In this document: positions 45,001 to 48,000 of the stretch, piece by piece
Layout of the letters: each line of letters begins with the position of its first letter
How positions within the stretch are numbered: the stretch's first letter is position 1
Assembly: GCA_000165345.1 (NCBI GenBank)
Contig: CM000432.1
Location: 544,001 to 608,000, forward strand
Direction of reading: 5' to 3'
Length of the DNA stretch: 64,000 nucleotides
Position numbers: made by a program

Positions 45001-48000
45001 ATAGTGTATAGCTTTTTTATAATGAGTTATTTGAATCTGCATTTGATCGACTATTTGTAATTAGTTCCGAGATTTGGTGAATTAGGTGAATAAATACTTT
45101 CTGTAGACTATCATCGGTAATATCTTTCACTAATTTAATTAAATAATCCAATGCATTCCTTTGATATTCCAAATAATGTTCATTTATTTTTAATAAATTG
45201 TAACAATCTTTTACTAACGAACTATTTTTTCCATAGTTTTCAGAAATCTTAAGTTTCATTTCTTCATCAGCAATTTCAAACGATTTTTGTAGTGGCCATG
45301 TAAGTTTAAACCTGCAAATATCATCTGCATTGCTATCATTAAATAAGTAGTCAGAAACATCATTGTGCACTTGATAGAATTCGCCCAGTTTATAGAGGAT
45401 AGCTTCAATCAAGTTTAATTGCGCTGAAGAAACTTGAATTTCAGAAAGTGTTAAGCCAAAAAATACAGGCATATAAAACGTATAGCGAGAAGTCTTCATT
45501 TCTACCATTGAAAAGTATCTTTCGGATATTTTGTCAGCTTTAGATAAATCAAAATATGACAGATCTAAATGTTGGCCCAATACCGTAAAAAAAATAGATT
45601 CATTGTATATTTTCTGGATTTTCATAACAATATCATTTCCGAATACACTAGAAAGCTCAAAGATCAGTGAAAGTGATAGCATTTTCAAGAAAAAAATGTC
45701 ATTAATTGCATTCGATTGACCATGAACAATATACCAACAAGGCGCTCCTCTTCTAAATTTACCAGAATCCATAATATCGTCCGCAATTAATATCAATGCT
45801 TGTATTGCTTCAACCACCCACCCTAACAAATAAATGGAGTCTCTCTTTATATTTGAATATGCTGAACTTAAACTTGAGATTAACACTAAAATTTTGCCAC
45901 GAATATGCTTGCCTTTTTTTACGTTATAATCAATACAGTTTAAGTAATATTCGATTACTGGTTTTCTTATTTCATCATTTAATGGTAATTTTTTTAAAAC
46001 ATTATATACTATTACTTTAAATTTATCGTAATAATTAATAAAATCCGTATAATCATATTCTATTTGCAAATCATTCATTTTATTGAAAATGAATTGAGGG
46101 GTTAAATAATTATCGTGCAGAGCAAAAAATATTGAGTCAATAAACGTTATTTTTAATAGATGAAAGAGAATCTAGATATTTTTTGTTTACCTTTTTTTGT
46201 GAGTAGGAATTATTATTAAATTAATCAACTTACTTTTTTACAAAACTCAGGATAATCAGCGCATGCAGCCAATATCAAATCAACCAATTGATCTTCGAAT
46301 ATTAATAAAAGTGAAACAAATAAAACTAACCAAATAACTTACTTCTTTCTAAACATACTATCTGGCTTTCAATAGATGTAGCTTTTAAGGATCCACCTAA
46401 TTTATTGATAACTTCATTTTTTTCGAGACTATTTCTTTCATTGATTAACTTTTGCAAATTTTGCCTTCTGTGGCTGCTTAAAGAATAACTAATTCTCTTT
46501 TTTTCTTTTAGTTCGGCATTCCTAATTGGTGTTTGAAAGTTCGGCATTTATAACTGAAAAATAAAAGCTAAAAAAAATAACTGAATAATAGAATCTTTTC
46601 GCGCAAAATAATCGATTAAAAAAATGTTAAATACAAATAAAACGCGTAGGAATTATGGAACTTGCTTGAATTAAATGTTTATGAAAAAAAAATTAAGTAA
46701 ATCCAAGCTTAAAACTAAAATTTTTAAAACTTTCAAAGTGAACAAGGTGTATTTGTAACATCAATTAAAGCATGTTTAAATAGCATGCAATATAAACATG
46801 CGACATGTAATTGCTAGTTAATTCCCCATCGTTAAAACATTTAGAACTATTCTTTGAATTTTTATGGTTATTTATGGCACCTGAAACTCAATTCAATTTT
46901 AGAAAGCATAAAAGCGACCTAAGAAAATTATCTTTGGTCATTTTTATAACAATAGATGTGTTATATGCAGGAGTGCTCGCAGTTTCATTTGGGAAAGTTT
47001 GTGACACACCGTTGAAGGCATGGCTCGTTGGTGCAATACTATTGGTAAGAAATTTAAATAATAAGTAATTCTTCATTAATGATAAATTAGTCCTATCCTG
47101 CTTCTAAGCTTATGGCTATAATAGAATCCACATTTGGGCAAAAGTAAGTTGTCTTGAATACAAAGAAATATATTATATAAAAGAAGTTTTGCAATAATAG
47201 GTGAATCTATAATGTTTTTGGCAAGTTTTCTTTGGTTCACAATGGGAACTGTTTGGGTAAGTTGAAAATTCATTATAATTATTCGATTACTTGTTTAGGT
47301 AAATACTTCATTGGTTTGTCAAAGCACTGCGCCTGCACTTTGGTGGACGGTATGTTGAAAATTAACTAGAAAAAAACTAAAAATTTTGCATGTTCAGACG
47401 TTTGTTACAATTTCTTCAATTTGGTTTTTTACAGCAGGTTTGGCACTTTCTTTAATTGGAATAACAGTTTACCATATGATTGCTACGGGAGGCTCAAATC
47501 CAGAATTTAATAGTATCTCAGATAAGCCTACGATGTAAAATATTCAATGAATTATTTCAAGTAAACATTTAGTATTGAATAAATGTTCTTTTAATGTTTT
47601 TTGAAATGTTGATGAATTTCATAGATTATTAAATACAATTAAATGACGTGAATTGTTTATTTAACGTTTTGAAAAAAAAAATTATAAATTTTCCCAAATC
47701 AACAAAGTAGATGACTCAAAATTTAATTCCTCTAAACTGTTGCAATGTTTCTTGTAGATTTGTTGATGAGCTTCCATTGTTTCCTGTTAAAATTGATGAT
47801 AACATATACGTTTTTGGTAATTCTGTTGTTATAGAAATGTTCGCAAGGATCCCACAACACTGGATATCAATAAAATTTGCATCAAATAGTTGTATCCACC
47901 TTAAACCAGGTCTAAGGCATGAAACAGGAATTGAAGCTGCTGCAATAAATTCAGACTGTATCGAATCTGATGACTTAACCTCGAAATTAATAATCGAAAT

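What the first reader, a model, noticed from the sequence alone, without database searches (positions are those of the whole stretch)
46875..47539. Five-exon micro-gene with four introns of 56-85 nt inside a 670-bp span, invisible to ORF scanning
The region after the track ORF 46811..47068 contains a series of near-consensus splice signals at regular spacing. The donors are GTAAGA, GTAAGT, GTAAGT and GTATGT. The acceptors are aatag, aataatag, caaag or tttag, and ttttttacag. Joining the resulting 19-104-nt exons keeps one reading frame. The joined frame encodes a small protein with two or three hydrophobic helices (MAPETQFNFRKHKSDLRKLSLVIFITIDVLYAGVLAVSFGK..AWLVGAILL | NPHLGKS | ESIMFLASFLWFTMGTVW | .. 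| GLALSLIGITVYHMIATGGSNPEFNSISDKPTM). This is exceptional intron density for an otherwise intron-poor locus. The exon 3/4/5 boundaries are ambiguous: two acceptors are possible for exon 4, giving a 105-aa or a 125-aa product.
Basis: seen in the sequence. Interest (0 to 1): 0.55.

Follow-up and report, generated by a model that had tools for sequence, protein, structure and literature searches.

The report
Annotated five-exon Cryptosporidium membrane-protein gene

Summary
The window is Cryptosporidium parvum chromosome 4: it is 100% identical over 12.7 kb to CP044419.1. At 46874-47538 (+) there is a genuine five-exon, four-intron gene. It is already in GenBank as cpbgf_4002560 / CPATCC_0020110 (161 aa) and CPHLJ_4g2555 (162 aa).

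The exons are 46874-47044, 47091-47143, 47187-47256, 47299-47349 and 47398-47538. The introns are 46, 43, 42 and 48 nt long.

Three acceptors were wrong (47124, 47200, 47434).

In seven Cryptosporidium species the first four exon lengths are invariant, intron lengths vary, and all 28 introns are GT..AG. Third codon positions vary most (0.91 against 0.24 for second positions).

The protein has four long helices (AlphaFold pLDDT 91). It matches no Pfam or NCBIfam family and has no specific fold match in the PDB. It has relatives in Toxoplasma, Eimeria, Theileria, Plasmodium and dinoflagellates.

The Toxoplasma and Plasmodium orthologues carry 7 and 8 introns. Two Cryptosporidium introns sit at identical positions and phases, so the intron richness is ancestral.

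Verdict: a real gene, already known, and ordinary apart from its intron density. Its function is uncharacterised.

The parts
46874..47044 (+). Exon 1 (171 nt, codons 1-57). Encodes the basic N-terminal tail, helix 1, the loop with the CDxPLxxW motif, and helix 2.
   Evidence: The exact-protein splice map has a unique solution. The exon is 171 nt in all 7 Cryptosporidium species. All orthologues start at the same Met.
47045..47090 (+). Intron 1 (46 nt, GTAAGA...TTAG, phase 0).
   Evidence: GT and AG are conserved in 7/7 species while length varies from 46 to 56 nt. Position and phase are the same as in the T. gondii and P. yoelii orthologues.
47091..47143 (+). Exon 2 (53 nt). Encodes SYPASKLMAIIESTFGQ plus two bases of codon 75: the end of helix 2 and the short loop.
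   Evidence: 53 nt in 7/7 species. The LLSxPA motif is conserved in Toxoplasma, Eimeria and dinoflagellate relatives.
47144..47186 (+). Intron 2 (43 nt, GTAAGT...GAAG, phase 2). A tandem upstream AG at 47182-47183 gives the alternative 40-nt intron and the 162-aa product.
   Evidence: The downstream AG is conserved in 7/7 species. The upstream AG is present only in C. parvum and C. ubiquitum. Both versions are deposited: 161 aa (QOY42184.1, WRK31841.1) and 162 aa (KAL5369183.1).
47187..47256 (+). Exon 3 (70 nt). Encodes helix 3, ...FAIIGESIMFLASFLWFTMGTVW, with the near-invariant Glu and the invariant Gly.
   Evidence: 70 nt in 7/7 species. Among family members covering these positions, Glu is present in 67/72 and Gly in 72/72.
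47257..47298 (+). Intron 3 (42 nt, GTAAGT...TTAG, phase 0).
   Evidence: GT..AG in 7/7 species, length 41-62 nt. Position and phase are the same as in T. gondii and P. yoelii.
47299..47349 (+). Exon 4 (51 nt). Encodes VNTSLVCQSTAPALWWT, the loop carrying the second conserved Cys and the TAPxLWW motif.
   Evidence: The peptide is identical in every Cryptosporidium orthologue whose annotation includes it. The DNA is 82-92% identical to C. parvum across species. The motif is conserved family-wide.
47350..47397 (+). Intron 4 (48 nt, GTATGT...TCAG, phase 0).
   Evidence: GT..AG in 7/7 species, length 43-53 nt.
47398..47538 (+). Exon 5 (138 nt plus TAA). Encodes helix 4 (TFVTISSIWFFTAGLALSLIGITVYHMI) and the C-terminal tail GGSNPEF...
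Evidence: Splice map.

Best explanation
This is the annotated Cryptosporidium parvum chromosome-4 gene cpbgf_4002560 / CPATCC_0020110. It is an ordinary spliceosomal gene.

Four very short GT-AG introns (46, 43, 42 and 48 nt) are removed from a 665-nt primary coding span. The resulting 486-nt reading frame encodes a 161-residue integral membrane protein with four long helices.

The intron richness is inherited. The orthologues in Toxoplasma and Plasmodium are even more fragmented, and Cryptosporidium kept four of the ancestral or near-ancestral introns while losing the three in the N-terminal part.

The following points about the protein are inferred, not shown.
- The basic N-terminal tail and the C-terminus face the cytosol.
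- The two short loops carrying Cys43 and Cys105 (161-aa numbering; Cys106 in the 162-aa product) face the lumen or exterior and are probably disulfide-bonded.
- The protein most likely acts as a small tetraspan structural or accessory subunit in a membrane of the secretory pathway or surface, not as an enzyme.

Its biochemical role is unknown.
For: Identity.
- The 162-aa and 161-aa spliced products are exact matches to deposited C. parvum proteins KAL5369183.1, QOY42184.1 and WRK31841.1, and to near-identical C. hominis, C. meleagridis and C. tyzzeri proteins.
- The window is 100% identical to CP044419.1 over 12,665 bp.

Gene model.
- The splice map that reproduces the deposited protein has a unique solution.
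- Across 7 Cryptosporidium species, exon lengths 171/53/70/51 are invariant while intron lengths vary (41-69 nt, by amounts that are not multiples of 3). All 28 introns are GT..AG. Exons are 60-93% identical to C. parvum and introns 35-86%.
- Variable columns by codon position are 0.44 / 0.24 / 0.91.
- CPATCC_ tags belong to the CpIA annotation, whose authors state its introns are 100% supported by RNA-seq (PMC8744675).

Protein.
- A profile search found 104 relatives at E <= 1e-3. They include T. gondii, Eimeria, Theileria, P. yoelii and dinoflagellates, and exons 2, 4 and the start of exon 5 are conserved in them.
- The AlphaFold model has mean pLDDT 90.9 and four long helices.
- The two loop cysteines co-occur: both present in 44 relatives, both absent in 27, mixed in 1.

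Ancestry of the introns.
- T. gondii has 7 introns and P. yoelii 8.
- Cryptosporidium introns 1 and 3 coincide with introns of both in position and phase.
Against: - No transcript data could be examined here. RNA support rests on a blanket statement in the annotation paper, not on a gene-specific check.
- Two deposited C. parvum annotations disagree by one codon at the intron 2 acceptor (47183 or 47186).
- Introns 2 and 4 are offset by 7 and 12 nt from the nearest Toxoplasma introns, so their ancestry is not shown.
- The functional statement (topology, disulfide, accessory subunit) is inference only. No family, fold or literature hit gives a function.
- The Cys co-occurrence is not corrected for phylogeny. 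It could reflect a single loss of both residues in one clade.
Confidence: 0.93

Rival explanations
1. The reader's splice pattern is the real mRNA or a substantial alternative isoform. It has exons 46874-47044, 47125-47143, 47201-47256, 47325-47349 and 47435-47538, and gives a 124-aa protein.
For: It is in frame and uses AG dinucleotides preceded by A/T-rich sequence.
Against: - The three acceptors lie inside coding sequence (ATA-ATA-G and TTT-ACA-G codons) and are not AG in 2-4 of 7 species.
- The product lacks the family-wide LLSxPA and TAPxLWW motifs and half of helix 4.
- The exact sequence is not in a 15-billion-protein collection, whereas the annotated products are.
- More than 150,000 in-frame GT-AG combinations exist, so being in frame carries no weight.
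Confidence: 0.02
2. The main product is the 162-aa form, made by using the upstream AG (47182-47183) of the tandem AAG-AAG acceptor. Alternatively, both forms are made (NAGNAG-type wobble splicing).
For: The C. parvum HLJ and C. tyzzeri annotations use this acceptor. The upstream AG exists in C. parvum and C. ubiquitum.
Against: Only the downstream AG is conserved in all 7 species. The RNA-seq-based CpIA annotation and the BGF, C. hominis and C. meleagridis annotations give 161 aa.
Confidence: 0.2
3. The protein is a member of the MARVEL tetraspan family, as UniRef's automatic name 'MARVEL domain-containing protein' suggests. It would then act like synaptogyrin or occludin-type membrane organisers.
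Against: - The Pfam scans returned no MARVEL match for the C. parvum protein at E <= 10 or for any of 27 family members at E <= 1.
- Foldseek against the PDB gives nothing at E <= 0.001.
Confidence: 0.1
4. The protein is a free-standing relative of the membrane domain of plant RING-type E3 ligases of the At1g12760 / At1g63170 / At4g11680 group. It would work as a membrane anchor or partner in ubiquitin-related processes.
For: The motif order is similar: PLxxW, then FxWxxGxxW, then APxL(Y/W), then a helix. This was first recalled from memory. It was then tested with real plant sequences retrieved and aligned. hhalign aligned helix 3, the loop and helix 4 over 49 columns with E = 0.0016.
Against: - The hhalign probability is only 16% and the match covers only one third of the domain.
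- None of the 10 profile hits scanned against Pfam showed a RING domain. In the hit table the family domain ends near the C-terminus, leaving no room for one.
- Hydrophobic helices readily give spurious profile matches.
Confidence: 0.12

Closest known systems
Annotated C. parvum gene cpbgf_4002560 / CPATCC_0020110 / CPHLJ_4g2555 and its Cryptosporidium orthologues (for example cand_015320, cubi_01416)
   Same: The product is identical (161 or 162 aa), with the same exons and introns. Synteny is the same: the gene lies between the polyprenyl synthase and the PI-PLC genes.
   Different: Nothing differs; this is the same gene. The deposited orthologue models for C. canis (exon 4 skipped), C. ubiquitum and C. 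xiaoi (exon 2 wrong) differ from the conserved structure and look mis-annotated.
Apicomplexan 'putative membrane protein / conserved protein, unknown function' orthologues: T. gondii B9PKV0 (162 aa), P. yoelii XP_022812793.1 (163 aa), Eimeria U6MBI5, Theileria parva Q4N4B3
   Same: Same size, same four-helix layout and same motifs (CDxPLxxW, LLSxPA, E in helix 3, GT, C..TAPxLWW). Two intron positions are shared exactly.
   Different: Only about 30% identical. They have 7-8 introns, including a 5-nt micro-exon, instead of 4. None has a described function.
MARVEL-domain tetraspan proteins (synaptogyrin, physins, occludin)
   Same: Small proteins with four transmembrane helices. UniRef's automatic name points here.
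   Different: No Pfam MARVEL match. Structural similarity is no better than to unrelated helix bundles.
Membrane domain of plant RING E3 ligases At1g12760 / At1g63170 / At4g11680
   Same: The short motifs around helix 3, the loop and helix 4 come in a similar order. There is a weak hhalign match.
   Different: No RING domain here. The match probability is 16%, so homology is not established.

Membership tests
Spliceosomal GT-AG intron-containing protein-coding gene | Canonical GT donor and AG acceptor at every intron | tested here: met
   All four introns in the window and all 28 introns in 7 species are GT..AG. Donors are GTAAG/GTATG-like.
Spliceosomal GT-AG intron-containing protein-coding gene | Exons under coding constraint while introns evolve freely | tested here: met
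   Exon lengths are invariant and intron lengths vary by amounts that are not multiples of 3. Variability by codon position is 0.44/0.24/0.91.
Spliceosomal GT-AG intron-containing protein-coding gene | Spliced transcript observed | not testable with these tools
   No read data were available. The only indirect support is that the CpIA annotation (CPATCC_0020110) states all its introns are RNA-seq supported (PMC8744675).
Unnamed myzozoan four-helix membrane protein family (T. gondii B9PKV0-like) | Significant profile similarity over the whole domain, with shared motifs | tested here: met
   The profile search gives E values of 1e-20 to 1e-10 for Toxoplasma, Eimeria, Theileria and Plasmodium proteins. 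Ten columns are invariant or nearly invariant in the 27-sequence alignment: L47, W50, L57, P60, E82, W92, G96, P111, W115 and W125.
MARVEL domain (Pfam PF01284) | Match to the family profile | tested here: not met
   The Pfam scans returned no MARVEL match at E <= 10 for the C. parvum protein, or at E <= 1 for 27 family members.
MARVEL domain (Pfam PF01284) | Four-transmembrane-helix architecture | tested here: met
   The AlphaFold model has four long helices. This feature is shared by many unrelated families.
MARVEL domain (Pfam PF01284) | Specific structural similarity to a solved MARVEL protein | tested here: inconclusive
Plant At1g12760-type transmembrane RING E3 ligases | C-terminal RING-H2 domain | tested here: not met
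   The protein ends 17 residues after helix 4. The 10 relatives scanned have no RING Pfam match.
Plant At1g12760-type transmembrane RING E3 ligases | Homologous membrane domain | tested here: inconclusive
   hhalign of the two family alignments gives probability 16% and E = 0.0016 over 49 columns.

The most novel reading that the evidence does not exclude
The gene may be the Cryptosporidium representative of a still undescribed tetraspan family. The family has no Pfam entry, no solved structure and no literature. It is conserved in apicomplexans and has relatives in dinoflagellates. It has a paired, probably disulfide-forming, loop-cysteine signature and a conserved helix-3 glutamate. It may be distantly related to the membrane domain of plant RING E3 ligases. 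Its unusual retention of ancestral introns in an otherwise intron-depleted genome might reflect a requirement for splicing in its expression.
Probability: 0.3. Interest if true: 0.35.

Novelty: already known. Interest (0 to 1): 0.15.

Why it matters
The result matters mainly as a check on method. Reading splice signals by eye in AT-rich DNA found a real gene and its donors. It mis-placed three of four acceptors, because coding ATA-ATA-G and TTT-ACA-G strings look like acceptors. Frame preservation was no safeguard.

Biologically, the locus shows that Cryptosporidium keeps a few ancestral, very short introns in tiny genes. Several deposited orthologue models (C. canis, C. ubiquitum, C. xiaoi) probably need correction.

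The protein belongs to a conserved apicomplexan membrane-protein family with no known function. It is a reasonable but not urgent target for localisation and knockout studies.

Tried and rejected
The 51-nt exon 4 combined with the 47435 exon 5 start hits a stop, giving the 105-aa product. The 25-nt exon 4 gives 124 aa. Neither is in the protein collection.
- An exhaustive GT-AG enumeration showed frame-keeping is uninformative.
- Pfam gave no match for the gene's products or for the 10 relatives scanned at E <= 0.01. All 27 family members gave only scattered weak hits (best E = 0.0019, one member each, apart from YrhC in three at E = 0.06). NCBIfam gave no match for the C. parvum, T. gondii and P. 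yoelii proteins.
- A PDB sequence-profile search gave only a chance hit at E = 0.27.
- A word-indexed search with the family alignment added little.
- Literature searches for locus tags and accessions found no papers.
- Rfam found no RNA family in 46000-47800.
- The plant RING E3 lead, first recalled from memory, was tested with real sequences and stayed inconclusive.

Full report
**What is in the sequence**

The window is AT-rich (about 30% G+C). Around the finding lie a polyprenyl synthase ORF (45017-46078, minus strand) and a PI-PLC ORF (47716-50367, minus strand). The 12,665 bases centred on the finding are 100% identical to Cryptosporidium parvum chromosome 4, record CP044419.1, positions 752428-765092.

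The stop codon TAA is at 47536-47538. Four such motifs in 306 nt is the densest cluster on either strand of the 64-kb window. The + strand background is 0.58 per kb, which gives a Poisson P of about 4e-5 for a 320-nt span. The signal is real and not chance.

I rebuilt both reader variants.
- A 51-nt exon 4 joined to an exon 5 starting at 47435 shifts the frame and stops after 105 codons.
- A 25-nt exon 4 gives an in-frame 124-aa protein.

An exhaustive enumeration of GT-AG combinations from this ATG gave more than 150,000 that reach the same stop without an internal stop. 'Keeps one reading frame' therefore carries no weight, and outside evidence was needed.

**The true model**

I submitted several candidate products to an exact-sequence look-up.
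- A 162-aa candidate is identical to KAL5369183.1 (CPHLJ_4g2555, C. parvum).
- Its 161-aa sibling is QOY42184.1 (cpbgf_4002560) and WRK31841.1 (CPATCC_0020110).
- Near-identical proteins exist in C. hominis, C. meleagridis and C. tyzzeri.

A splice-mapping script that must reproduce the deposited protein exactly finds a single solution.

| Feature | Coordinates | Length |
|---|---|---|
| Exon 1 | 46874-47044 | 171 nt |
| Intron 1 | 47045-47090 | 46 nt |
| Exon 2 | 47091-47143 | 53 nt |
| Intron 2 | 47144-47186 | 43 nt (40 nt if the AG at 47183 is used) |
| Exon 3 | 47187-47256 | 70 nt |
| Intron 3 | 47257-47298 | 42 nt |
| Exon 4 | 47299-47349 | 51 nt |
| Intron 4 | 47350-47397 | 48 nt |
| Exon 5 | 47398-47538 | 141 nt including TAA |

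The acceptors of introns 1, 2 and 4 were wrong.

**Independent comparative support**

Orthologues were found in C. felis, C. ubiquitum, C. ryanae, C. canis, C. andersoni and C. xiaoi. Their genomic loci were fetched. All are syntenic, lying next to the PI-PLC gene.

In the seven-species DNA alignment:
- The first four exon lengths are invariant (171, 53, 70, 51).
- Intron lengths vary (46-56, 41-69, 41-62, 43-53 nt), by amounts that are not multiples of three.
- All 28 introns are GT..AG.
- Exons are 60-93% identical to C. parvum, against 35-86% for introns.
- In the annotated frame, the fraction of variable columns is 0.44 / 0.24 / 0.91 for codon positions 1 / 2 / 3. This is the signature of purifying selection on a coding sequence.

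The annotated acceptors are AG in 7/7 species. They lie in the codons ATA-ATA-GAA, ATA-ATA-GGT and TTT-ACA-GCA, so they are look-alike sites created by coding sequence.

At intron 2 only the downstream AG (47186, giving 161 aa) is conserved. The upstream AG (47183, giving 162 aa) exists only in C. parvum and C. ubiquitum. This explains why depositors disagree by one codon.

**Transcript evidence**

No transcript evidence could be examined directly. The CPATCC_ locus tags belong to the CpIA annotation, whose authors state that its introns are 100% supported by RNA-seq (PMC8744675). This is a blanket statement, not a gene-specific one.

**How unusual is the structure?**

A published C. parvum re-annotation reports the following (PMC4637869):
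- 10.8% of genes have introns.
- Intron-bearing genes have 2-10 exons, with a mean of 2.6.
- Mean intron length is 99 bp.

Five exons in 665 bp, with 42-48-nt introns, is at the dense, short end of that range but inside it.

The explanation is ancestry. The T. gondii orthologue has 8 exons and 7 introns. The P. yoelii orthologue has 9 exons and 8 introns. Both include a 5-nt micro-exon. On a protein alignment, Cryptosporidium introns 1 and 3 coincide in position and phase with introns of both species. Introns 2 and 4 lie 7 and 12 nt from the nearest Toxoplasma introns. The three N-terminal introns are absent in Cryptosporidium.

**The protein**

No Pfam family matches the C. parvum protein at E <= 10. 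The 10 relatives scanned gave none at E <= 0.01, and the 27 family members gave only scattered weak hits. NCBIfam also gave nothing.

A full HMMER profile search found 104 relatives at E <= 1e-3. They include:
- T. gondii 'putative membrane protein' (162 aa);
- Eimeria and Theileria hypothetical proteins;
- P. yoelii 'conserved protein, unknown function' (163 aa);
- dinoflagellate sequences.

The family alignment conserves CDxPLxxW, LLSxPA, a Glu and a Gly in helix 3, and C..TAPxLWW.

The two loop cysteines are either both present (44 relatives) or both absent (27), with one exception. This suggests a disulfide between the two loops that lie on the same side of the membrane. The count is not corrected for shared ancestry.

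The basic N-terminal tail (RKHKSDLRK) suggests a cytosolic N-terminus. That rests on the positive-inside rule and is an inference.

**A lead that stayed a lead**

From memory, the motif order resembles the membrane domain of plant RING E3 ligases (At1g12760 group). I retrieved real plant sequences, aligned them and compared the two family profiles. hhalign aligned helix 3, the loop and helix 4 with E = 0.0016 but a probability of only 16%. This is inconclusive. There is no RING domain here.

**Verdict**

The exon boundaries and product were largely wrong. The gene is already annotated in several C. parvum assemblies and in other Cryptosporidium species.

What remains unknown is the function of this conserved apicomplexan tetraspan family. 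No literature was found for any of its identifiers.

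Noticed in passing
window 46143-46547 (minus strand): A second small intron-rich gene lies head-to-head with the micro-gene. Its exons are 46547-46343, 46292-46234 and 46190-~46143, with two GTAAGT introns of 50 and 43 nt. The 105-aa product is MPNFQTPIRNAELKEKK...DLILAACADYPEFCKKVNKKYLDSLSSIKNNVY. 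It is conserved by tblastx in C. ubiquitum, C. canis and C. felis, and annotated as a 90-139-aa minus-strand gene at the same place in the other genomes, except C. canis, whose locus has a longer 452-aa polyprenyl synthase model there. It has no Pfam match.
   Followed up: partly
L008:1501-2404 (T. gondii) and L009:1501-2917 (P. yoelii): The orthologues have 7 and 8 introns in a CDS of about 490 nt, including a 5-nt micro-exon (L008:1630-1634, L009:1664-1668). Four consecutive exons (94, 29, 60 and 63 nt) have identical lengths in the two species.
   Followed up: partly
L005 (C. canis), L004 (C. ubiquitum), L006 (C. xiaoi), gene at 3001 onwards in each: The deposited orthologue models look wrong. 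C. canis skips the invariant 51-nt exon 4 (144 aa). C. ubiquitum truncates exon 2 (151 aa). C. xiaoi reads a different exon 2 (165 aa). The DNA of all three contains the conserved exons with GT..AG borders.
   Followed up: partly
proteins P0027, P0031, P0036 (relatives from assemblies of public sequencing runs, organism not recorded): Longer relatives (350-450 aa) carry a long N-terminal extension and an insertion of roughly 130-160 residues between helices 2 and 3, with a WTLEGSxDGxxW motif. Their other motifs are the same. The insertion has no Pfam match.
   Followed up: no
window 46596-46608: The sequence TTTTCGCGCAAAA lies in the roughly 330-bp region shared by the two divergent micro-genes. 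From memory it resembles the E2F-like GCGC-core motif reported upstream of many Cryptosporidium genes. This was not tested.
   Followed up: no
window 23896-24311: This is the only other cluster of three strong donor-like motifs on the + strand (23896, 24025, 24192). It overlaps a 107-aa ORF (23988-24311, [14 protein letters not shown]...) that, from memory, looks like ribosomal protein L31e. It may have a 5' intron.
   Followed up: no
window 47182-47186: The tandem AAG-AAG acceptor at intron 2 explains the one-codon difference between deposited C. parvum proteins: 161 aa (GQNFAII) and 162 aa (GQKSFAII). It could also permit NAGNAG-type alternative splicing.
   Followed up: yes
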